A stretch of DNA of 64,000 nucleotides from a virus (lineage: Duplodnaviria; Heunggongvirae; Uroviricota; Caudoviricetes): positions 577 to 64,576 of IMG/VR virus record IMGVR_UViG_3300050821_004987; one strand, given 5' to 3'. Under the pieces are notes generated by a model. The model ran no database searches. It worked only from the letters and a program-made list of their open reading frames with translations, and was not told where the DNA came from. This document shows, in pieces, positions 14,890-50,175 of this stretch (within the stretch, counting starts at the first letter, position 1; every line of letters begins with the position of its first letter). Both the position numbers and the translations under genes were made by a program.

Positions 14890-17800
14890 ATGCCCGGTCC
14901 GACGGTAAAAGAAATATTATTGAAATGGGGAATTGATAACAGCAATTGGAAGAAAGCTATCGGTGAGCTTGCCCAGTTACTCGAGAAAACGAATAAGGAC
15001 TCAGCCAAGGCACAATCTCAGGCAGCTTCCAGACTAGAAGCCCAGAAAGCAAAACTCAAGGAGGTTGTGGCTGCCAGGAAGTCTGAGACGGAAGAAATAA
15101 ACAAACAGATCGGTCAGTTGAAAGTACAAGCTGCGACTGCCGGTGCTGTAAAAGCAGAAGCTGTATCAAAGTTAGCAGCAGAAAAGGCAGCCTCAGCAGA
15201 AGCTGGGAAACAAGCAGCTCTACAGAAGACCCTACAGACGATCCAGAAAACTCTCCAGCAGGAAGTCTACACGAAGTTGATGAATGAAAAGCTGGTGACT
15301 GCCGAGATCAATCGGCAGAATGCAGCACTACGTCTACAGACTGCCCAGCAACGGGCAGCATCGGGAGCGGGTGGTCGGGGTGGTGCTGGAGGGGGTGGGG
15401 GTGGTGCTGGAGGGGGATTTCTAGGAGGGTTGTTCGGAGGACTGGGAAGTAAGTTTGGTGGTACACTTACGACGGGTGTAGCGGCTGGTGAACTTCTTGC
15501 ACATACGATCGAAGGCTTGATCCAGAAGATAACGACTTTCATTAAGGACAGTGGACCACTTGAGCAGGTTCGTCAACAGTTTGAGAAACTTGCACAGATT
15601 AAGGGTTTGGACTCTGTCAAGTTTATAGACGACCTTAGAAAAGCTACACACAATCTTGTAAACGATATTGACTTGTATCGTATCGCCAACAAATTCATGC
15701 AGTCAGGCATCAAAGCTTCCGAACCAGACATCATCAAGTTGACACAAGCAACAGTTGGGTTGGCAAGAGCCCAAGGTCGTGATGCTACGCAAGCATTGAA
15801 TGCCTTGAGTATGGGGTTGGCAACTGGAAGATTCCAGAGATTGGCCTATATAACTGGGTTGACGAGAGAAGAACTGACAGTGCGTGGGTTATCAGCCACG
15901 ATGTCCGCAGCACAGAGAAATCAGGCTCAGTTCGATCGAGCACTTTCACAGATAACAAAAAGATATCAAGAGTTCGGTGAGCCAGCACTAACGGTTACAG
16001 ATTTACTGAGGCAGATGGATGTAATCAGTAACAGACTCTTTGAAGCTTTTGGAAGAGGTATTGTTCAGTCTCGTGGTATGGCTGTAGCATTTCAGTTCTT
16101 GCAAGAGATAATGACTGAGCTTAATTCTGGAGAAGGAGGAGTAGCTACCTTAGGACAGAAGTTTGGGGACGCGTTGATTGTTTTTGTGGAAGTAGCAAAA
16201 GCCTTGGGTAGTATAGCTACGACCTCAGCAGATTTATGGAAGAAATTAGTAGAGACATTCGCACCAAAAACAATTTCAGATGACTTTATTTCCAGATTGA
16301 CTACGTTAACTGGTTTATTAAAAACAGCTGCCGGTGCAGCTGTTTTAGTTAAAGGCACTTTTAGGGAGATGGCCCTACGGGCAGAGTACACTGGAAAGGA
16401 AGCTAAAGTAGTTGGACAGCAAGATTATAAAAGGTTAGGATCTCTAGTTGGTATTCCCGGACCTGCTGGTGGATATCATGGTGTAGCGGATCTTCATACA
16501 GAATTTGACGCGAAGTTGGAAAAGATAAATGAAGAACAGGATAAGGAATTAGCAGCTTTAGAAGCTTTATTCAAAGCGTCACAGAAACCAACTGAGTCGG
16601 GGGCTACAGGTATTGGGAAACCGGGTGCCCAGACACCAGAGGAGGTTATAGCTCTAGAACGTCAGCAACGCCAGCTGGCTTTGAAAGGAAAAGAGGCGGA
16701 TGCAAAGATAGAGCTTGCCCTTGAGAAGGGAAAGCTTGAGCAGTTGAAGCAGGCGAATGAGGAGTTTTACGACGCTGGCTTAGAGTCTCTCCAAGATTAC
16801 ATCCAGAAGAAAAAAGATTTACAGCAAAGAGAGTTGCAAGATACTCTGAAAGAGATAGCCGACGAGGCAAAAGCAAAGCAACAAGCCCTGACGTTGCAGA
16901 GTCAAGAAGAGTTCATGGATCCGAAGTCTTTGGCGATGAGTCGAGCCAACATTGCCAAAGAAGCTCAGCAAAAAGAAATAGATGCCAGAAATGCTACCCA
17001 GAGAGCTTTATCGGCTCTGGATATGAAAGGCATCACAGATCAGCTTGCTGCCAGAAAGAAACTGGCAGATACGATCGATGCTTTGGAGAAGGCACAGATA
17101 GAACGCTCCAGGCAGAATACAGAAGAGGAGTTCAAGCAGGGAGAGATTGGAGCCCAAGAGTATCTGGATAAGAGAATCCAGTATATAGAAGAGGATTACG
17201 AAGCGACAAAGACAGCCGAGCAAAAGAAGCTAGAGGAGAATAAGAATTCCGAGACGGCGAAAGAAGAGTTCGCCCAGAAGATGGCGAAGGCTGCCGAGGA
17301 CAGAGAGAAAGCCTTAACGACGCTGGCTTTGAATGAAATAGACATTCGTACGAAGGCAACGGAGCAATCCTACGATCGCGCACAAAAGCTAATCGAAGGT
17401 CAGCTACAGTACCAGCAGAGTTTGAATAAGACAACAGACTTCGGAGGGGGAAGACAAGAAGAGCAAGCACTTATCCAGGAACAGATAGAGTTGCTCAGGA
17501 GTAGGTTGGAAGAAGAAGCAAAATCCTTGAAGTTGACGCAGGAAGGTTCAGAAGCCTGGTTCCAGCAGCTGGAAAAAATACAGTCTACAAAAGAGGCCTT
17601 GGTCAAGTACAACGAAGAGTTGGCCAAGTCCCAGGAATGGGCCAGTGGGGTGGCTTCTGCTTTGAAAGAGATGTCGCAGGCTGCTGCGACGTTCCCGAAA
17701 ATAGGAGCTCAGAGGGTTTCGAAAGGATTAGACACACTAGCTAAAGGTCTAGAGGAGCAGGAGCAGGCAAGACAGAGAATAGCCCAAAGAAAAGCAGCAC

Positions 17801-35829: not shown

Positions 35830-36786
35830 TTGATCGATTTCTTTACACAGATGACTTTGAAAGGTGTCGAAGTCAGAGAGCATTCGACAGAGCCAGACGA
35901 ATTCAAGATCTGTTGTTTGTTCTGTCCGGAGAGAAATCGTGGGATCGATTTCGAGTTTAAGCTCGGATTTAATATCAAGTCCGGATTGGGTCATTGCTTT
36001 CGCTGTGGTTGGAGTTCCAGAAAGGTACTACTGGATATCCTAAGACAGCTCGGTTCAGATAGCTTCGAAGAGATACGAGCAGAAGCTTTCACACAAAAGA
36101 CCAGAACGAGACCAGATCCAGTAGATTTTCCAGTAGGCTTTGAAAAGCTGAAAGACGTGACAGACAACGATCCATTATTCGGAAGAGCTAGGCAGTATGT
36201 CCGGAAAAGAGGTATCACGCCTAGACAGCTTAGAACGCATGAGATCGGTGCAACGGTGCAAGATGACAAGTTTCATCACATGATCATTTTTCCAGTCCGT
36301 TATGGTGATATGTTGGCTGGTATGGTTGGGAGAGACTGGACGGGGCAGAGATTCTTGCAGTATGAGAATTCAGTTGGGAACAAATGCGCATATAACGTTC
36401 ATCCCGAGAAATACGAGATGGGTACGAAGATTGTAGTAGTCTCGGAAGGGATACCGAAAGCGCTGGCAATAGAGAGAGCGACGGAGTATAAGATGGTCTC
36501 TTCGGCGACGATGGGAAATGCGATTACAGCGATCCAATCAAACCAGCTGAAACAATTTGACGAAGTGGTTCTCTTCGTTGATCCAGATGTAATCGGTATG
36601 AAGGGCTATTTGGCTGCTGCCGATAACTTACAGCCGTTGGTAAAGAAGGTCAGTATGGTCTGGCCTTGGCCTGAGCAGCAAGCAGATGAGATGCATGACT
36701 CAGAGATTAGGGAACTTCTGGCAGCTAGAAAAGAGATAACACCACTGCTGCGCATGAGAATAAAATCACTGATGAGAGACAGATGA
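35830..36786 (+). CDS. DNA primase (Zn-binding plus TOPRIM)
   Basis: CCLFC...HCFRC zinc domain; VVVSEG and LFVDPD TOPRIM motifs. Confidence 0.88.
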   Translation: MIDFFTQMTLKGVEVREHSTEPDEFKICCLFCPERNRGIDFEFKLGFNIKSGLGHCFRCGWSSRKVLLDILRQLGSDSFEEIRAEAFTQKTRTRPDPVDFPVGFEKLKDVTDNDPLFGRARQYVRKRGITPRQLRTHEIGATVQDDKFHHMIIFPVRYGDMLAGMVGRDWTGQRFLQYENSVGNKCAYNVHPEKYEMGTKIVVVSEGIPKALAIERATEYKMVSSATMGNAITAIQSNQLKQFDEVVLFVDPDVIGMKGYLAAADNLQPLVKKVSMVWPWPEQQADEMHDSEIRELLAARKEITPLLRMRIKSLMRDR

Positions 36787-36900
36787 GTTTGGTGCGGCGT
36801 GGTGAGCTGTGGTGTGGTTAGGCAAGGTGGTGTATGGTAAGGTTTGGTGTGGTGTGGTACAGTTGGCTAAGGTTGGGTCATGTTTGGTAAGGTGAGGTAA
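36786..36900 (+). repeat. In-phase GGTNN pentamer array 1 (23 units including leading AGTTT)
   Basis: agttt ggtgc ggcgt ggtga gctgt ggtgt ggtta ggcaa ... ggtaa ggtga ggtaa. Confidence 0.92.
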
Positions 36901-36909
36901 GGAGAAAAA

Positions 36910-37176
36910 ATGATAAAGGACGTGTACTTATTTACAGACGGCTCGTTGGCAGTCTTTGATGGGGCCGGGAAAGAAAGAGCAGATCTAGAAGGAAAATTGA
37001 CACCAGAGCTACAAGGGAAGATACTGGCTGAGTGCGAAGAAGGAACTCGGATTACGCTAGCTCGTTGGAAGAGAGGCTTCTTTGAGCTGACTAGAAAAGA
37101 GTTCGAAGGTACTTCTATGGTTGGTAGTCTACTAAATGTAAAATTCTGGATGCCAGGTGAAAAGAGCAGTGACTAA
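36910..37176 (+). CDS. Hypothetical protein
   Basis: AAGGAG RBS at end of array 1. Confidence 0.6.
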   Translation: MIKDVYLFTDGSLAVFDGAGKERADLEGKLTPELQGKILAECEEGTRITLARWKRGFFELTRKEFEGTSMVGSLLNVKFWMPGEKSSD

Positions 37177-38080
37177 GCAAATTGTAATTATCGACGGAAA
37201 GTGGTGTGCGTATAGACATCACTTCGCCCATTTGAAATTGAGTTCAGGTGGGAAGCCGACCGGTATGTTCTACGGGTTTCTGACTGAGCTGCTCAAGATT
37301 AACAAAAAGCTGCCAGAGGCTAGGATCATCATTTGCTGGGACGGAGAAAAGAAAACATGGAGGCATAAAGCGTATCCAGCCTACAAAGCAAATAGGGCTT
37401 TCAATCCTGAGTATGAGAAGATGCAGTGGCAGATACATCAGCTGATTCCGATTTTGCGATTGCTCGGATTATGGGTCCTCCAGCTAGATGAAGTAGAAGC
37501 GGACGATATGATCGGTATGGTGGCTAGTAACTTAGCCAGACATGGGCATGAAGTTCGAATTTTCTCAAAAGATCGAGATCTGTTTCAGCTATTGGATAAC
37601 AACGTATGGGCTTGGCACGATTTAGATCAGAAGCCTTTGAAAGTGAAGGATGTAGAGAGATGGCTTGGGGCTCCGATGAATGCTTTTTTAGATATCAGGG
37701 CGATGGCCGGAGATCCAGGTGATGGTTTGAAAGGGCTGCCCGGAGTTGGGCTAAAGACGGCAGTCAAGTTATGGAAGCAAGGATTGAGAGTGGTGGGTTT
37801 TTATGCATCGGGTTCTGCTTTAGTAAAGAAATACGATGAGCACTGGCGTAGAGTTTTCAAAGAAAGACAGATGGCAAAGATCATCACAGATCCGAGAAGC
37901 GAGGTATGGACGAAAGAGACAAGTAGTGTTTTGGTAGACTTACTGAAGAGAGTAGCTACCAGACCAGGAAGGGATGGTGAGTGGGCTGAGAGACACAGAA
38001 GAGAGATTTACGGGTTCTTGGGTCAGTACGAGTTGAAAGAGCTGTTAGCAGAGAGGCATAAGCTATTCAGGTTGCCTTGA
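37157..38080 (+). CDS. 5'-3' exonuclease/flap endonuclease (PolI N-terminal/T4 RNase H-like)
   Basis: IIDG, ICWDG, YKANR, EADDMIG, SKDRDLFQL, GDPGDGLKGLPGVGLKTA. Confidence 0.92.
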   Translation: MKRAVTKQIVIIDGKWCAYRHHFAHLKLSSGGKPTGMFYGFLTELLKINKKLPEARIIICWDGEKKTWRHKAYPAYKANRAFNPEYEKMQWQIHQLIPILRLLGLWVLQLDEVEADDMIGMVASNLARHGHEVRIFSKDRDLFQLLDNNVWAWHDLDQKPLKVKDVERWLGAPMNAFLDIRAMAGDPGDGLKGLPGVGLKTAVKLWKQGLRVVGFYASGSALVKKYDEHWRRVFKERQMAKIITDPRSEVWTKETSSVLVDLLKRVATRPGRDGEWAERHRREIYGFLGQYELKELLAERHKLFRLP

Positions 38081-38105
38081 CATTAGGGGGATTGTACTAT
38101 ATAAT
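38077..38105 (+). promoter_or_regulatory. Perfect sigma70 consensus promoter
   Basis: TTGACA (38077-82) - 17 bp - TATAAT (38100-05). Confidence 0.88.
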
Positions 38106-41159: not shown

Positions 41160-42253
41160 GCTGGGTAGAAGCCGATAAGAAAGCAATGATCACAGCTGTG
41201 GATGTGCTGAGTCTTGTTCCACAACGAGCCGGGATTCCTTCATCAGACTTTGTCCGAGTACTGACAAAAAAGAATGCAATCGAGATGTCACTTTCATCGA
41301 CGGTGACCGGTGTGGTTCGGGTTCCTTTGACCGATACATTGACGCCGGGACCATTTTTTGTCGACAAAGGATTATTTACAGCCTACATTCAAGCCGGAAA
41401 AAGCTGGAAGGGCAATTTCAAGATGGCTTTGACAGAAGATAAATGGTTGATCAGACAGGGCAGTCGTAAGGCAGACTTCTCGATGAGAAAAGAGCCAGTG
41501 AGTGGCTACGGAGTCTGGCGAGATCGAGACAAGTCGAAAGAGATAAAGCTATCAGAGGGCTTGAGAAAACTGCTACTGGCTTCGAATCACTGTTCGACAG
41601 CCGATCCAGCGTTGCCGCATCTAAATTGTGTCTACATCGGTGGCAAGTTGGTGCTATCGACGAATCTGATTTCACTATTCGTTGGAGTACGAGACCAAGA
41701 AGATGCATTGAGAATTCCATTTCCAGTCGGCATCATTCCGCTATTAGGTGACAGTCTGGTGCAAGCAGTTGGAGTGGAGAACGATCGAGTCATGCTGGAT
41801 TGTGGTTGTGGATTCATAGAAGGAACGATTTCGGCAGTAGCTCAGAAATCGTTTCCAAAGAAGGACGTAGTGGAGAAGATACAGAAAGGACGGACATGGC
41901 CACTACTCACCAGACTGCCAGCCGAGAAGCTCTCAAAGATGCTAGCCAGATTGGCCAGCTACTTGGGTGGAGTGAAGAGGGAAGACTGGATTGTGGAGAT
42001 GGCGATCGATCAAGGAGTAGTCAAAGCATCAGTACGAGTTCAGCAGGGAAAGTTCGAAGAGCAGATGGAGATTGAGAACGGGACAGTAGAAGGAACGATC
42101 AGATGGCCACTGGAGTTAGCTTTAGCAGTTGTTGATTACATGGCCCAGAATGGTGAGTGGATCAAAGTACGAGTGGACGAACAGAAGAATACACCTTATC
42201 TTCTATCCGGTGGTGGGGTGGAGATGATGGTGGCGAGACAGATTGGTAAATAA
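41156..42253 (+). CDS. dnaN: DNA polymerase III beta-type sliding clamp
   Basis: 365 aa; three-domain beta-clamp pattern including STADPALPHLNCVYI (cf. dpsRpvLnGv); replication context with DnaX. Confidence 0.68.
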   Translation: MSWVEADKKAMITAVDVLSLVPQRAGIPSSDFVRVLTKKNAIEMSLSSTVTGVVRVPLTDTLTPGPFFVDKGLFTAYIQAGKSWKGNFKMALTEDKWLIRQGSRKADFSMRKEPVSGYGVWRDRDKSKEIKLSEGLRKLLLASNHCSTADPALPHLNCVYIGGKLVLSTNLISLFVGVRDQEDALRIPFPVGIIPLLGDSLVQAVGVENDRVMLDCGCGFIEGTISAVAQKSFPKKDVVEKIQKGRTWPLLTRLPAEKLSKMLARLASYLGGVKREDWIVEMAIDQGVVKASVRVQQGKFEEQMEIENGTVEGTIRWPLELALAVVDYMAQNGEWIKVRVDEQKNTPYLLSGGGVEMMVARQIGK

Positions 42254-42402
42254 GTTTGGCATGGTAGGGTTTGGTAAGCTAAGGTGATGTATGGTGCGGT
42301 GATGTCTGGTGAGCTGCGGCATGGTCTGGTAAGGTAGGGTGAGGCGAGGTGAGGTCTGGTAATGTAATGTCTGGTAGGCTAAGGTCGGGTGAGGTAGGGT
42401 GA
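42253..42402 (+). repeat. In-phase GGTNN pentamer array 2 (30 units including leading AGTTT)
   Basis: agttt ggcat ggtag ggttt ggtaa gctaa ggtga tgtat ... ggtga ggtag ggtga. Confidence 0.92.
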
Positions 42403-42406
42403 AGAA

Positions 42407-42703
42407 ATGAGTTATCCAATTCTATTTGGACAAACTGAAGAGTTTCACGCAGCTCGTCGAAATCGCACACCGTATCCGGTTTCGTTTCCACGTGAGTTGC
42501 TTAAGGGACATGAAGAGCAAGCTCAGCATAATCATTCTCAGACTCTAGAACGCTTAGCAGAACGTGGAGGTCTGAGCCCTAAAGAACTTTGGTGCGTCGT
42601 ACATGATACGGATTTTTACGGTCCACTTGGAAGAACGATGACGGAAGCAAAAGCAATTGAGTGGCTAGGAACTATAGAGGATGTTGTTTGGCGAGTTCCA
42701 TGA
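42407..42703 (+). CDS. Hypothetical phage protein
   Basis: HEEQAQHNHSQTLERLAERGGLSPKEL. Confidence 0.65.
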   Translation: MSYPILFGQTEEFHAARRNRTPYPVSFPRELLKGHEEQAQHNHSQTLERLAERGGLSPKELWCVVHDTDFYGPLGRTMTEAKAIEWLGTIEDVVWRVP

Positions 42704-44580
42704 AATTTCAAAACGTGTTGCAGTTCGACGAGAACAAAAAGACTTTCGATCCTGTGCCCGAAAAGGGTGAGCGAAAGCCAAGGAAAGATCAGAATCGTGG
42801 CTGTGGTTTCTGTCCTTTGGATAAGATCAAAGGGCTGAAGAAGATCAAGAATCTGGACAAGCTACAGGGTAAGTCAATCATGATCTGGGCTCAGAATCCA
42901 GGCTCAGAAGAAAACAGATTAGGGAAAGAACTAGTGGGTCCAGCTGGTAAGTTTCTTTGGGAGCATGCAGCGTCGGTTGGGTTAACGAGAGAGATGTGCG
43001 ATATACAGAATGTAGTCCGCTGCGCTACAGTCTCAGAGAACGAGTTCGAGCAGTGGGAGTTCCATAATCCAACGAAGGAAGAGCTACACGCTTGCTCGAT
43101 CTATACAGAAGAAGCTTTGGAGAAGGTGCAAGGTCAGACTAAAGTACATATTGTCTTCGGACAGGTGGCTGCGAAAGCTCTTCTCAAAGGCGAGTACCGG
43201 AAGGATCAGAAGACTTTCTATTCAGAAAAGCTGAAGGCTTGGGTCATTCTTACTTATCATCCCAGCTACTTCTTACGAGGTGCGCCGAGATCAAAGATTA
43301 AGGAGTTCCGGGAAGCGTTGGCGATAGCAGTAGAGAAGGCAAAAGGTGCGACTGGGAAATTTTCCTACATTCAAAGTCAAGAGTATGTGACATTGGGTGC
43401 TCGTGCTTTGAAGACTGGGCTTGATGAGCCGATAAGGGTGGCAGCTGCAAAAGGAATTGTTGTATCTGTAGATATAGAGGATGGAACAAACGCTGAAGGA
43501 AAGAATGTAATTGTGTATGTTGGCTTTTCATGGGAGAAAGGAAAATCAAGAGGAGTTTTCTTTGACCATCACGATCTGAAAAATACACCAGACGAACAGC
43601 AAGCAAAATTTCATTTCGTATCAGATCTTCTGACAGATCCGAAGATCAAAAAAGCATTTCAGAACGGAGTCTACGATGTCTGGAAGTTAGAGAAGCTATG
43701 GGGTGTTAAGGTCAAAGGCTTCGTACACGATACGATGCTTTCGGAGTATTTGAGATTCTCCGGTCGTAGAGCCTTCGGGTTAGAAGCGACAGCTGATATC
43801 AGGTTCAGAGAGTTCGCCGGGTACAAAGATATTCTAGATCATTACAAGGACGAGAAGACCGGGCTGGTAAACTTCTGGACCGTGCCGATGAAGATCATCC
43901 GGGTCTACAATGGCGCGGACTGTGATTTGACGAAGAGAATTCAGAGGAGCAACAAAGGGAAGGTAAACGAGGCGCTGCTAAAAGTTCTCATTTTAGTAGC
44001 TCCAGTGCTGGCGAAGATGGAGTTGGAGCGTGGTCCGTTACTAGACTTTCAGCATGCCGATCTACTAGATACCTGGCTACCGATCAAGATAGCCTCGCTG
44101 AAAAAAGAGTTACAGAAGCTGGCTGGATATAAGTTCAATCCAAATTCACCACAACAGGTAGTCAAGATCATTTACGACGAATTGAAGCTGGGCAAGCATC
44201 TGGATGCCGAGTGGAAGAAAGATTTTCCTAGATCAACAAACAAAGAGACGATGGCCTTACTAGCAGACTTCCATCCATTTCCAAAACGGTTGACCGAGTT
44301 TAGGAAGATAGCAAAAAAGAAATCGACGTATCTCGATGCTTACCGTCGATCGGCTACATTACACGGTGGACGGGTCCGGACGAAGTGGTGGCTAACTGGT
44401 ACGATCACTTGTCGGCTCAGATCGGGTGGAGAGAAGGTGAAAAAGAAAGGAGAGCCTTCGGATAAGTCAAAAGGCATTGTAAATTTGCAAAACATCCACG
44501 GTGCTGAAGAAATAGAATGTTTATTGGTATCAGACTTGAGGTGGCGAGACCTATATAAAGAATGGAGAGAACAGCAATGA
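42700..44580 (+). CDS. polA: Family A DNA polymerase, N-terminal part: UDG-like domain, 3'-5' exonuclease and first part of polymerase domain
   Basis: CGFCPL, NPG..E, NVVRC, TYHPS (family-4 UDG-like); DIEDG, QNGVYD, HDTML, YNGAD (Exo I-III); FNPNSPQQ, ST.KE, GTITCRLRS, NLQNI. Confidence 0.9.
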   Translation: MKFQNVLQFDENKKTFDPVPEKGERKPRKDQNRGCGFCPLDKIKGLKKIKNLDKLQGKSIMIWAQNPGSEENRLGKELVGPAGKFLWEHAASVGLTREMCDIQNVVRCATVSENEFEQWEFHNPTKEELHACSIYTEEALEKVQGQTKVHIVFGQVAAKALLKGEYRKDQKTFYSEKLKAWVILTYHPSYFLRGAPRSKIKEFREALAIAVEKAKGATGKFSYIQSQEYVTLGARALKTGLDEPIRVAAAKGIVVSVDIEDGTNAEGKNVIVYVGFSWEKGKSRGVFFDHHDLKNTPDEQQAKFHFVSDLLTDPKIKKAFQNGVYDVWKLEKLWGVKVKGFVHDTMLSEYLRFSGRRAFGLEATADIRFREFAGYKDILDHYKDEKTGLVNFWTVPMKIIRVYNGADCDLTKRIQRSNKGKVNEALLKVLILVAPVLAKMELERGPLLDFQHADLLDTWLPIKIASLKKELQKLAGYKFNPNSPQQVVKIIYDELKLGKHLDAEWKKDFPRSTNKETMALLADFHPFPKRLTEFRKIAKKKSTYLDAYRRSATLHGGRVRTKWWLTGTITCRLRSGGEKVKKKGEPSDKSKGIVNLQNIHGAEEIECLLVSDLRWRDLYKEWREQQ

Positions 44581-44999
44581 TCCTCAGTGGACGAGATCTG
44601 AAGTGGTACATCGAGACCGGAAAGCTAAAAATAATTCCAGTTAGAGATGATCAGTTTCAACAGAATGGGATCGACTTGATTTTGGACGAAGTTAAGCCGA
44701 TGGTCGGTATATTCTCATTGGGTTGTACAAGAGAAGTACTTGAGCTCCCAGATGATTTGATGGCCTTTGTCGAGTTGAGAAGCTCGTGGGCAAGGAAAGG
44801 ATTCTTTCTTCCACCAACGATCGTAGATGCCGGGTTCAAGGGAAATTTGACGCTGGAGATGCTCTCGTTTATGGTTCCACCACAAGAGGCGATTGGAGAG
44901 CGCTTTGCTCATTTGATCTTCGCCAAGACGACCAGTCCTTGTGAGCCGTACAGAGGGATGTACACAGATCAGAGAGGGATTACGGAGTCAAAGCTATGA
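44577..44999 (+). CDS. dcd: dCTP deaminase (trimeric dUTPase superfamily)
   Basis: MILSGRDL, QQNGIDL, LRSSWAR, TIVDAGFKGNLTLE, YRGMY..QRG. Confidence 0.85.
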   Translation: MILSGRDLKWYIETGKLKIIPVRDDQFQQNGIDLILDEVKPMVGIFSLGCTREVLELPDDLMAFVELRSSWARKGFFLPPTIVDAGFKGNLTLEMLSFMVPPQEAIGERFAHLIFAKTTSPCEPYRGMYTDQRGITESKL

Positions 45000-45478
45000 G
45001 AAATACTAGCGTGTTGCAAGATTGGTTGGTCCAGATTCCAATTCGGATGCAGTCGACGTTGATTCTTGGGCTGCGTGGGCCAGATACGCACTGTACGCCG
45101 GGAGTCAAGACAATCACACGGTGGCTTCGCGGGCTAGCGTTCAAGCCAGGGAATCCAGATAACGTCAGAGAGTTTATGACGAAAGAGCCGGAGCTGATTT
45201 TGGAGAAAGGTCCAACAGCTAAAGAATTAGAATTCTGTACCCAACATTTCTACAGCCATCTGATGCATTCGTTGGAGGTGGTTGCTTATTGTCATCCAGA
45301 TAGAGAGATATCCCGGGTAGCGCACGATCGATATACAGCGATGTGTGCGGCTTTTCATTTACCCATCGAGTCGGTACAAGAGTTTACAGAAAGACTTGGG
45401 CATAGAAGTTGGCCGGGTGGGAGTCAGCCAGATACGTTTGAAGATGCGATTAGTTTGTTGGATGGAGAAGTAAAATGA
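44996..45478 (+). CDS. Hypothetical phage protein
   Basis: SVLQDW...MQSTL...RGPD; HFYSHLMHSLEVVAYCHP. Confidence 0.65.
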   Translation: MRNTSVLQDWLVQIPIRMQSTLILGLRGPDTHCTPGVKTITRWLRGLAFKPGNPDNVREFMTKEPELILEKGPTAKELEFCTQHFYSHLMHSLEVVAYCHPDREISRVAHDRYTAMCAAFHLPIESVQEFTERLGHRSWPGGSQPDTFEDAISLLDGEVK

Positions 45479-45678
45479 GTTTTTGGGTAGGGGTTCTTAA
45501 AGGTCAATATGAGAATCATGAAGTTTTTTCTTCTAGTAAAGATCCTGAGCCAGAAGATTTTCCAAAGTATGATTATGTAGTTGGACCATTCAGTAAAAAG
45601 AAAGAAGCCGAAAAGAAAGCTAGAGAAGAAAAGAATCAGACCGGAATGTTTCATCCTTTTCCAGGACATCCAAGATGA
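45475..45678 (+). CDS. Small hypothetical protein
   Basis: ATGA-coupled on both ends. Confidence 0.55.
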   Translation: MSFWVGVLKGQYENHEVFSSSKDPEPEDFPKYDYVVGPFSKKKEAEKKAREEKNQTGMFHPFPGHPR

Positions 45679-46565
45679 GTCTAGTCAGCAAATTCGGCGA
45701 TCTTGATGTCTATCTTGGAGCAGATCACAGCCAGTTAGAGATTCGTGTGCTGGCTCAGATGTCAAAAGACAAGAGGCTGATCGAGCTAATCCAATCGGGA
45801 GAAGATATCCACGCATCAGTCGGACATGAGTTAACCGGGCAGCCGATTGCAAAGATCATGAAAGACAGGCCTCTCAGAACAGCAATCAAAGGGCTACACT
45901 TCGGAATCATTTACGGGTTAACAGAAGAATCGCTGTACTACCATTTGCTGAATGAGGCTTTGGAACGTGGTGAGCCATTCAACATGTCGAAGGAAGACGT
46001 AGCCAAGCTGTGGAAAGCCTATTTCAAGAGGTTCTCTGGAGTAGCAGAATTCATCGAGCACCAGCATCAGTTTGCACAAGACAATGCCTATGTGGAAACT
46101 TTGTTTGGTTTCGTCAGAGAGATTGCCATTGCTGGAGATGAGACGAGAACAACATTCTGGGCAAACCAAGCAGTTAACAGCCCAATTCAGGGAACAGCTC
46201 ATCAGTTGATGTTGATTGCGATGGCGATCATCGGGATTAAGCCACAGACATACAATTTGCTCCAGCGGCCATCGATGGAAGTGCATGATTCGCTATATGT
46301 TTTCGTCAAGCTATTGAAGCTGGTAGAAGCGTACAAGCAATTTAATCAGCTGATGGAGAAAGAGATTCTGGTCTACGTAGCTAAATGGTGGCCAGAAGTA
46401 AAGTGGGTCGTTCCGTTGAAATCTGAAGCTAAAGCCGGATTCAGACTGGGAGTGATGGTCGAGTATGCTGGTGAGCCACCAGAAGAGTTTGTCGAGAAGT
46501 GGTGCCAGAAGAACCAACAGTTTCAGATTAAACTTCAAAAGGAAATGAAAAAGGAAGTTGTATAA
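45675..46565 (+). CDS. polA: Family A DNA polymerase, C-terminal catalytic part (motifs A, B, C)
   Basis: ADHSQLEIR (A), RTAIKGLHFGIIYG (B), NSPIQGTA, VHDSL (C). Confidence 0.92.
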   Translation: MSLVSKFGDLDVYLGADHSQLEIRVLAQMSKDKRLIELIQSGEDIHASVGHELTGQPIAKIMKDRPLRTAIKGLHFGIIYGLTEESLYYHLLNEALERGEPFNMSKEDVAKLWKAYFKRFSGVAEFIEHQHQFAQDNAYVETLFGFVREIAIAGDETRTTFWANQAVNSPIQGTAHQLMLIAMAIIGIKPQTYNLLQRPSMEVHDSLYVFVKLLKLVEAYKQFNQLMEKEILVYVAKWWPEVKWVVPLKSEAKAGFRLGVMVEYAGEPPEEFVEKWCQKNQQFQIKLQKEMKKEVV

Positions 46566-49700: not shown

Positions 49701-49964
49701 ATGGCAACGAAAGCAGACAAGGACAAGATCGCAGTTGAAAAGACGACGTCACAGCAGGAAGTAGTTTTGAAATTGTGGGTGGCCGTGGCTTCTGGTGAGA
49801 TGTCGATGCAGATAGCAGAGAAGCAGCTGCGTGATTACGTCGACTCACTGCCAGAAGATCAGAAGGAAGAGTTCCGGTTCAAGGCGAGAACATTCGGTCG
49901 GCTGTTGATGTCAGTGACAGAAGCCTTTTCCCAGGTGTTGACCGTAATAGCAGCTGGGCAATGA
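49701..49964 (+). CDS. Hypothetical protein
   Basis: AAGGAG RBS. Confidence 0.6.
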   Translation: MATKADKDKIAVEKTTSQQEVVLKLWVAVASGEMSMQIAEKQLRDYVDSLPEDQKEEFRFKARTFGRLLMSVTEAFSQVLTVIAAGQ

Positions 49965-50048
49965 GTTTGGCAAGGTAAGGTGTGGCAAGGTTTGGTAAGC
50001 TCGGGTGTGGTTGGGTTAGGTCTGCTAGTGTGGGGTAAGGTGGGGATA
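49964..50048 (+). repeat. In-phase GGTNN pentamer array 3 (17 units including leading AGTTT)
   Basis: agttt ggcaa ggtaa ggtgt ggcaa ggttt ggtaa gctcg ... ggtaa ggtgg ggata. Confidence 0.9.
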
Positions 50049-50049
50049 A

Positions 50050-50175
50050 ATGATCGAGACTTGGATTCTGAATCATAAGATACTAGCACCAGTATTGGCT
50101 CTGGTGCTGTCGTTTGGTTTTGTCGAAGGGGTACACAGGCTGGTTTGGTGGCACAGAAAGCATGGGAGTAAGTGA
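50050..50175 (+). CDS. Small membrane peptide
   Basis: Own translation MIETWILNHKILAPVLALVLSFGFVEGVHRLVWWHRKHGSK; coupled to next gene. Confidence 0.4.
   Translation: MIETWILNHKILAPVLALVLSFGFVEGVHRLVWWHRKHGSK

What the first reader, a model, noticed from the sequence alone, without database searches (positions are those of the whole stretch)
42253..42402. GGTNN pentamer array 2 (longest) and the shared architecture: a candidate undescribed cis-acting system
Seen: 30 in-phase units starting at the clamp stop (TAA-GTTTGG) and ending 4 nt before the next ATG. All three arrays (36786, 42253, 49964; 23, 30 and 17 units) start with AGTTTGG whose first A is the last base of the upstream stop codon, fill the whole intergenic gap, lie on the coding strand and occur only in the replication region. 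Established analogy: TRAP binds (G/U)AG-NN repeats with 5-nt periodicity, and GG runs with 3-nt loops can form two-tier G-quadruplexes. Inference: landing pads for a ring-shaped RNA- or ssDNA-binding protein controlling translation coupling, termination or mRNA decay; alternatively primase/helicase/recombination loading sites or a stop-codon-targeted insertion element. I know of no functional description of such arrays.
Basis: partly seen in the sequence, partly recalled or inferred. Interest (0 to 1): 0.85.

Follow-up and report, generated by a model that had tools for sequence, protein, structure and literature searches.

The report
Scattered VIPR guide-RNA arrays in phage
The three GGTNN repeat arrays are most likely guide-RNA genes (vrRNAs) of VIPR, a CRISPR-like phage system first described in 2026. 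What is unusual is that they sit between essential replication genes, 70-84 kb from the gene for the protein that uses them.

Summary
Three in-phase GGYNN arrays of 23, 29 and 16 units fill the gaps after the primase-like gene, after the clamp gene and before the CmcI-like gene. All lie on the coding strand and are far beyond chance.

They are not an undescribed system. They have the form of VIPR vrRNAs (bioRxiv 10.64898/2026.04.26.720920). The same 128.6-kb phage genome encodes one Vipr protein, 57 kb beyond the window's end. It matches SUSP1 Vipr in the PDB and the discovery protein X1U2U4 by fold. All 37 homologous vipr loci fetched from IMG/VR carry the same kind of array beside the gene.

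The claim "only in the replication region" is wrong: the genome has nine arrays.

Three relatives have arrays at the same sites. They share the stop-codon-overlapping (A)GTTT leader but differ in their variable NN bases and in length.

The layout differs from the published one. The arrays are scattered, lie between genes of an operon, run into the next ribosome-binding site, have no structured 3' tail, and are longer (up to 46 units in a relative).

No target was found, and no RNA data exist.

This scan had already called six other arrays of this genome VIPR guides (e1-1880194), and it has many VIPR notes on other DNA.

The parts
35830..36786 (+). Primase-like (Toprim) gene whose TGA stop overlaps the leader of array 1
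   Evidence: Pfam Toprim and DNAG_N hits; ORF list
36786..36790 (+). Leader AGTTT of array 1; its A is the last base of the stop codon
   Evidence: TTT lies within 8 nt of the first unit in 23 of 25 arrays of this phage lineage, against an 8.8% background
36791..36905 (+). Array 1: 23 GGYNN units (17 GGY; variants GCT, TGT, AGT; last unit GGAGA is also the Shine-Dalgarno of the next gene)
36910..37176 (+). 88-aa ORF of unknown function directly after array 1; conserved in relatives L052 and L053
41081..42253 (+). DNA polymerase processivity factor (clamp) gene; its TAA overlaps the leader of array 2
   Evidence: PHROG 947, E 5.5e-5; homologues
42253..42257 (+). Leader AGTTT of array 2
   Evidence: The same stop+GTTTGG junction is present in relatives G001, L052 and L053
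42258..42402 (+). Array 2 (this finding): 29 GGYNN units (19 GGT, 3 GGC, 4 TGT, 3 GCT), ending 4 nt before the ATG
   Evidence: internal 15-nt duplication
42407..42703 (+). 98-aa ORF of unknown function after array 2; not conserved at this site in relatives
49701..49964 (+). 87-aa ORF whose TGA overlaps the leader of array 3
49964..49968 (+). Leader AGTTT of array 3
   Evidence: the same TGA-GTTTGG junction in G001
49969..50048 (+). Array 3: 16 units (15 plus a terminal GGATA), ending 1 nt before the ATG
50050..50175 (+). 41-aa hydrophobic ORF after array 3, upstream of the CmcI-like methyltransferase gene

Best explanation
The three arrays are vrRNA (guide RNA) genes of the phage's own VIPR system.

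Inferred mechanism:
1. The arrays are transcribed as part of the long + strand replication operons.
2. The 179-aa Vipr protein, a Cas7-like RAMP encoded 70-84 kb away, polymerises on the RNA, one protomer per 5-nt unit. It holds each GGY and exposes the two variable bases.
3. Host RNases trim the unprotected flanks. The conserved U-rich leader is a candidate cutting or nucleation site.
4. The filament reads double-stranded DNA of a competing element with one base skipped per unit (NNx) and silences it.

Shown here: the repeat architecture, the Vipr gene and its GGY-contact residues, the invariable pairing of this Vipr clade with such arrays, and positional conservation of the arrays with variable NN bases in relatives.

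Inferred only: transcription, processing, Vipr loading and the target.
For: (1) The units are GGY plus two variable bases, which is the published vrRNA definition.

(2) The genome has a single vipr gene at 121145-121684.
- phmmer against PDB 36pp 'SUSP1 Vipr protein': E 3e-9.
- Family profile against the same chain: E 1.8e-11 over 137 positions.
- AlphaFold2 model: pLDDT 88.
- Best AFDB-cluster hit: X1U2U4, E 7e-15, TM 0.86. This is the accession cited as the original Vipr.
- Best PDB fold hits: Csm3/Cas7 RAMPs.

(3) SUSP1 residues that hold GGY (R138, D177, W178, R179) align with R119, D158, Y159 and R160. R119 and D158 are invariant and R160 nearly invariant in the family.

(4) All 37 homologous vipr loci from IMG/VR have same-strand GG-phased arrays abutting the gene. 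There are 78 arrays, median 20 units, most ending in (GGYAR)2-GG. Arrays 1 and 3 resemble that ending.

(5) Relatives with 71-78% identical clamps carry arrays at the same sites. They share the stop+GTTT leader but have different NN bases and 10, 26 or 46 units. Relatives at 56-62% have none.

(6) Vipr orthologues (75-80% identical) come from the same samples as those relatives.

(7) Of 491 units in the lineage, the non-GGY variants at positions 1-2 are almost only TGT (38) and GCT (32). The transition products are nearly absent: AGT 2, GAT 0. This indicates selection on what the protein tolerates, not decay.

(8) No guide matches the phage's own genome above shuffled controls, as reported for real vrRNAs.
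Against: - No target was found.
- The arrays are not beside vipr.
- They lack the roughly 40-nt structured 3' tail of the characterised type II vrRNAs, and they exceed the 9-16 repeats reported there.
- Array 2 contains a near-duplicate 15-nt block, and GGTGA occurs 7 times in its 29 units. A guide matched to a unique target would not be expected to show this.
- No dedicated promoter or terminator flanks the arrays.
Confidence: 0.78

Rival explanations
1. The arrays are Vipr-binding cis elements of the phage's own mRNAs. A filament growing to the last unit (GGAGA, GGATA or GGTGA) would cover the ribosome-binding site of the next gene. It could also block RNases, and so tune translation or stability of the downstream genes. 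This could act instead of, or on top of, guide function.
For: In this lineage nearly every array ends 1-10 nt before a start codon, and its last unit doubles as the Shine-Dalgarno. There is no separate promoter or terminator. The NN content is repetitive, and no target was found.
Against: - In the wider Vipr clade the same arrays and the same 3' ending occur where no gene follows.
- The downstream genes are unrelated to one another.
- At the post-clamp site the downstream gene differs between relatives while the array stays.
- The published activity of Vipr-vrRNA is DNA binding in trans.
Confidence: 0.12
2. The arrays are decaying or selfishly expanding copies of vrRNA-like repeats, spread by slippage or recombination, with no present function.
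For: Internal duplications; 24% of units in the window arrays are not GGY; large length differences between relatives (10 to 46 units at one site); no target found.
Against: - The sites and the leader are conserved in four phages.
- Position 3 stays a pyrimidine in 66 of 67 units.
- The variant spectrum lacks transitions.
- There are no arrays on the minus strand in any locus examined.
Confidence: 0.06
3. The arrays are G-quadruplex or single-stranded-DNA elements that load replication or recombination proteins, or Chi-like sites.
For: They are G-rich with a regular spacing, and the window arrays lie in the replication module.
Against: - ViennaRNA with the G-quadruplex model predicts none. The MFE of the native sequences is within the range of shuffles.
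- There are no GGG runs by design of the unit.
- Six further arrays lie outside the replication module.
- No known Chi motif lies inside any array.
- This reading does not explain the fixed pyrimidine or the link with Vipr.
Confidence: 0.02
4. The arrays are binding sites for a TRAP-like or CsrA-like translational regulator.
For: The 5-nt periodicity resembles TRAP sites, and the GGA in the terminal units resembles CsrA sites.
Against: The fixed triplet is GGU/GGC, not (G/U)AG. The phage genome holds no TrpBP or CsrA homologue, while the control genomes were detected.
Confidence: 0.01

Closest known systems
VIPR type II, Escherichia phage SUSP1 and the P. fulva prophage (Vipr + vap1 + vrRNAs; bioRxiv 10.64898/2026.04.26.720920 and .720927)
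   Same: GGY/NN pentamer guide repeats. A small Cas7-like Vipr with conserved GGY-contact residues. Phage-encoded. No self-targets.
   Different: - 15-29 units here (up to 46 in a relative), against 9-16.
- No roughly 40-nt pseudoknot tail; only a short (GGYAR)2-GG ending that merges with the next gene's ribosome-binding site.
- No vap neighbour found.
- Arrays scattered over the genome inside operons rather than flanking vipr.
- TGT and GCT units tolerated.
- Vipr is only about 25-40% identical over the C-terminal half.
Solo (orphan) vrRNAs of satellites and vipr-null SUSP1-like phages (bioRxiv 10.64898/2026.10.15.759431)
   Same: vrRNA genes with no adjacent vipr.
   Different: Those elements lack vipr altogether and borrow or misdirect another element's Vipr. 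Their solo vrRNAs sit at the former vipr locus and keep the tail. Here the same genome keeps vipr, and the remote arrays lie between replication genes.
The Vipr clade of X1U2U4-like ~177-aa proteins in IMG/VR contigs (37 loci fetched here)
   Same: Same protein family (30-61% identity). Same array style: median 20 units, the same 3' ending, and the same rare TGY/GCY variant units.
   Different: In those loci all arrays lie within about 1.5 kb of vipr. In this phage and its close relatives they are dispersed (2-84 kb away), start at a stop codon with a GTTT leader, and end at a start codon.
TRAP binding sites in Bacillus trp leader RNAs
   Same: An RNA repeat with about 5-nt spacing, read by an oligomeric protein.
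   Different: The triplet is (G/U)AG with 11 repeats and the protein is a ring. No TRAP gene is present here. This is a resemblance in spacing only.

Membership tests
VIPR vrRNA | Tandem 5-nt units (at least 4) with conserved GGY and hypervariable NN | tested here: met
   67 units scored in the three arrays. Entropy is 0.5-0.6 bits at positions 1-3 and 1.7-1.8 bits at positions 4-5. The NN bases differ completely between relatives at the same site.
VIPR vrRNA | A Vipr (ancestral RAMP) protein is available, normally encoded by the same element | tested here: met
   Single gene at genome 121145-121684. PDB 36pp SUSP1 Vipr, E 3e-9 and profile E 1.8e-11. AFDB X1U2U4, TM 0.86. Csm3/Cas7 fold.
VIPR vrRNA | Vipr residues that grip G1, G2 and Y3 are conserved | tested here: met
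   R138/D177/W178/R179 of SUSP1 align with R119/D158/Y159/R160. R119 and D158 are invariant and R160 nearly invariant in 30 homologues. H17 probably corresponds to the invariant H19, but it lies outside the HMMER alignment.
VIPR vrRNA | The array lies in the intergenic DNA flanking vipr | tested here: not met
   The window arrays are 70-84 kb from vipr. Two other arrays of the genome do flank it. Adjacency is typical but not obligatory, since solo vrRNAs are published.
VIPR vrRNA (type II, SUSP1 clade) | An invariable structured 3' tail of about 40 nt after the repeats | tested here: not met
   The arrays end 1-4 nt before the next ATG. They fold no better than shuffles. There is no Rfam match. 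The clade has only a short (GGYAR)2-GG ending.
VIPR vrRNA (type II, SUSP1 clade) | 9-16 repeats per vrRNA | tested here: not met
   23, 29 and 16 units. The clade median is 20 and the range 9-83. Long arrays may be several guides; this was not resolved.
VIPR vrRNA | Expressed as a discrete small RNA that co-purifies with Vipr | not testable with these tools
   Only soil DNA runs hold the sequence; no RNA holder is listed.
VIPR vrRNA | A natural target with at least 80% NN match under the 1-nt-skip rule, and no self-target | tested here: inconclusive
   No self-target. Every hit failed extension.
VIPR locus | A vap accessory gene next to vipr | tested here: inconclusive
   No protein other than Vipr is shared between this genome and the neighbourhoods of the 37 homologous vipr genes, and those loci share no conserved neighbour among themselves. 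The paper lists six vap genes for seven types, so one type may have none.
TRAP-regulated leader | (G/U)AG triplets with 2-3 nt spacers, plus a TRAP (TrpBP) protein | tested here: not met
   The fixed triplet is GGY. PF02081 is absent from the genome, while the B. subtilis control was detected.

The most novel reading that the evidence does not exclude
In this phage lineage vrRNA arrays have become intercistronic parts of essential operons.
- They need no promoter, terminator or structured tail of their own.
- A conserved stop-overlapping RGUUU leader marks the 5' end, as a processing or Vipr-nucleation signal.
- The 3' handle has been co-opted as the Shine-Dalgarno of the next gene.

Vipr loading would then both release guides from mRNA and throttle translation of the downstream gene, giving a dual-use RNA element. 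It would also show that multiplexed VIPR guides can be embedded in ordinary mRNAs.
Probability: 0.2. Interest if true: 0.65.

Novelty: new variant of a known kind. Interest (0 to 1): 0.42.

Why it matters
VIPR is a newly described programmable DNA-recognition system, and natural variation shows what its guides really need.

- **What a guide needs.** These arrays suggest a guide can work without a structured tail, without its own promoter, far from vipr, with 15-46 units, and with TGY or GCY units mixed in. That bears on guide design and on multiplexing guides inside mRNAs.
- **Annotation.** Pipelines that look only around vipr would miss a third of this phage's arrays.
- **Biology.** Placing the arrays in the replication operons would make guides early in infection, when a rival element has to be silenced.

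Tried and rejected
**Target search (1-nt-skip rule, both strands)**
- Own genome, with skips of 0-3: the best scores equal shuffled guides, apart from the trivial self-match at skip 3.
- 41 fetched loci, and later the relatives' loci including their vipr regions: no score above shuffles.
- Relatives' arrays against this genome gave one marginal hit (21 of 24). It failed extension, 28 of 50 overall.
- Exact-pattern scans of IMG/VR for arrays 1, 2 (three windows), 3 and the distal array at 107972, of JGI metagenomes for array 3, and of GTDB genomes for array 2 gave 0-6 hits each.
- All hits were at chance level outside the pattern. The two in-frame hits lie in unrelated proteins.
- These scans need a perfect run of 9-11 units, so they would miss most 80-90% matches.

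**Other tests that led nowhere**
- NN composition against codon registers: the sense codon 1-2 register scores best of the six coding registers, but no better than strand background. Inconclusive.
- Expression: no RNA holder is listed for this DNA. Laying DNA contigs showed only that a second soil sample has array 2 unchanged.
- No Rfam family.
- Promoter-like and terminator-like sites are at shuffle level.
- No G-quadruplex or unusual fold.
- No Chi motifs in the arrays.
- No TRAP or CsrA gene.
- No vap candidate.
- PHROGs and Pfam give nothing for the small ORFs after the arrays.
- Whether the array-free relatives L054 and L055 lack vipr could not be checked, because those records are not held.
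- The VIPR type (I-VII) could not be assigned, because the papers' supplementary tables are not held.

Full report

- Array 2 starts with AGTTT at 42253. Its A is the last base of the TAA of the upstream gene, a DNA polymerase processivity factor (PHROG 947). It continues with 29 five-base units at 42258-42402 and stops 4 nt before the ATG at 42407.
- Array 1 (leader 36786, 23 units to 36905) follows a Toprim primase-like gene.
- Array 3 (leader 49964, 16 units to 50048) follows an 87-aa ORF. It precedes a 41-aa hydrophobic ORF and a CmcI-like methyltransferase gene.

Over the 67 units scored, positions 1-2 are G in 59 and 60 units, and position 3 is a pyrimidine in 66. Positions 4-5 are variable. 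The best 15-unit in-phase stretch has 12 GGY units. In 100 dinucleotide-preserving shuffles the mean was 4.6 and the maximum 6; the minus strand scores 3. Stops in every + frame of arrays 1 and 2 rule out coding.

The window is bases 577-64576 of a 128,576-bp virus record with direct terminal repeats. A phase scan of the whole genome finds nine arrays, all on the + strand and all intergenic. Six of them lie at 108-127 kb. The claim that the arrays are confined to the replication region is therefore wrong.

**Identity.** I took that as a lead and tested it.

The VIPR papers define vrRNAs as tandem YNNGG/GGYNN repeats. The GGY is held by a small ancestral RAMP protein, Vipr, one protomer per repeat. 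The NN dinucleotides read double-stranded DNA with one base skipped per unit.

The genome has exactly one Vipr homologue, a 179-aa ORF at 121145-121684.
- It matches PDB 36pp 'SUSP1 Vipr protein' (phmmer E 3e-9; family profile E 1.8e-11 over 137 positions).
- Its AlphaFold2 model (pLDDT 88) has X1U2U4 as best AFDB-cluster hit (E 7e-15, TM 0.86, full length). Another paper cites this accession as the originally reported Vipr.
- Its best solved-structure matches are Csm3/Cas7 subunits.
- The SUSP1 residues that grip GGY (R138, D177, W178, R179) align with R119, D158, Y159 and R160. R119 and D158 are invariant and R160 nearly invariant among 30 homologues.

**Association.** The family is large: 442 homologues at E<=0.001. 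In all 37 IMG/VR loci that encode a homologue, GG-phased 5-nt arrays lie directly upstream and/or downstream of the gene on its strand, and none lies on the other strand.

Those 78 arrays have a median of 20 units (range 9-83). Most end in (GGYAR)2-GG followed by unrelated sequence. This clade's guides are therefore longer than the 9-16 repeats of the characterised type II systems and have no long structured tail. The endings of arrays 1 and 3 (GGTAA GGTGA GGTAA GGAGA, and GGTAA GGTGG GGATA) resemble that signature. Array 2 ends GGTGA GGTAG GGTGA.

No other protein is shared between this genome and the neighbourhoods of those vipr genes, and those loci share no conserved neighbour with each other. 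No vap gene is therefore evident.

**Relatives.**
- IMG/VR contig G001 (clamp 78% identical) has arrays after the clamp gene and before the small-ORF/CmcI genes.
- Logan contigs L052 (78%) and L053 (71%) have arrays after the primase region and after the clamp. L052 also has the third array.
- At the post-clamp site all four phages begin stop-codon-A + GTTTGG, with TAA or TGA as the stop. Three of the four share the first unit GGCAT. The arrays then have 29, 10, 26 and 46 units with unrelated NN bases.
- More distant relatives (L054 at 62%, L055 at 56%) have no array within 10 kb.
- Vipr orthologues 75-80% identical come from the same sequencing samples as L052 and L053, in syntenic context and again with several scattered arrays.

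Across 25 arrays of this lineage, 23 have TTT within the 8 nt before the first unit, against an 8.8% background (binomial P about 1e-22). Most start within a few bases of the upstream stop and end 1-10 nt before the next start, often with GGAGA or GGAAA as the last unit.

Among 491 units the non-GGY forms at positions 1-2 are almost only TGT (38) and GCT (32). The transition products AGT (2) and GAT (0) are nearly absent. The wider clade shows the same TGY/GCY preference at lower frequency. That spectrum points to selection on what Vipr tolerates rather than to decay.

**Mechanism.** The best-supported reading is that the arrays are co-transcribed with the replication operons. No promoter or terminator excess flanks them. 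Vipr would then coat them, nucleases would trim them, and they would act as trans-acting guides against a competing element.

Those steps are inferred from the homologous SUSP1 system. None could be tested here, because only soil DNA runs hold this sequence.

The target is unknown. Every search I could run gave chance-level results (details under Tried and rejected). The public-collection scans require perfect 9-11-unit runs, so their sensitivity is low.

Two observations argue for some caution about a pure guide role. Array 2 carries a near-duplicate 15-nt block and seven GGTGA units. In addition, the arrays run straight into the ribosome-binding site of the next gene. A cis effect of Vipr loading on translation of that gene is therefore a live secondary hypothesis. 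Against it, the same array ending occurs in the wider clade where no gene follows.

**Rejected alternatives.**
- G-quadruplex or structured RNA: no G4 is predicted, and folding energy is within the range of shuffles.
- Known RNA families: no Rfam hit.
- Chi-like sites: none in the arrays.
- TRAP or CsrA regulators: no such gene, and the wrong triplet.

**Novelty.** The kind of element is known: three 2026 preprints describe VIPR, and a fourth recovers 99 VIPR-like clusters. This scan had already flagged VIPR on this genome and on many others.

What I did not find in the papers' main texts is this layout: a vipr-positive phage whose guides are scattered up to 84 kb from vipr. They sit as intercistronic inserts in conserved operons, with a conserved stop-overlapping U-rich leader, no tail, and a 3' end that doubles as a Shine-Dalgarno. 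I therefore rate it a new variant of a known kind, of moderate interest.

Noticed in passing
window 44996-45676: A contig from another soil sample (run X3) joins 44996 directly to 45676. It skips the 160-aa and 67-aa ORFs that lie between the two halves of the split family-A DNA polymerase, so a close variant lacks part of the insert.
   Followed up: no
window 42661-44580 and 45675-46565: The DNA polymerase A is split into two genes, and the N-terminal part also carries a uracil-DNA-glycosylase-superfamily domain (PF03167). Relatives L052-L055 show the same split with different inserted genes (HNH, dCMP deaminase-like).
   Followed up: partly
window 38077-38105: A perfect sigma-70 consensus (TTGACA, 17 nt, TATAAT; 12 of 12) on the + strand, inside the co-directional gene block between arrays 1 and 2.
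   Followed up: no
genome 121145-121684 (57 kb beyond the window's end): The single vipr gene. Arrays lie directly upstream (121039-121118) and downstream (121745-121824). No vap-like conserved neighbour was found.
   Followed up: yes
all arrays of the lineage (window 36791-36905, 42258-42402, 49969-50048; L051, L052, L053, L067, L069, L071): About 14% of units are TGT or GCT instead of GGY, while AGT, GAT and GGG are almost absent. This Vipr clade seems to accept K-G-Y and G-S-Y units. Their role (tolerated, punctuation, or avoiding slippage) is unexplained.
   Followed up: partly
L053:11096-11340: A relative's post-clamp array has 46 units and is followed by about 150 nt without a called gene. 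It is the longest array seen in this phage lineage.
   Followed up: no
window 15353-15416: A glycine-rich coding repeat (period 21 nt) gives a weak 5-nt GG phase signal. It is a false positive for array scans.
   Followed up: yes
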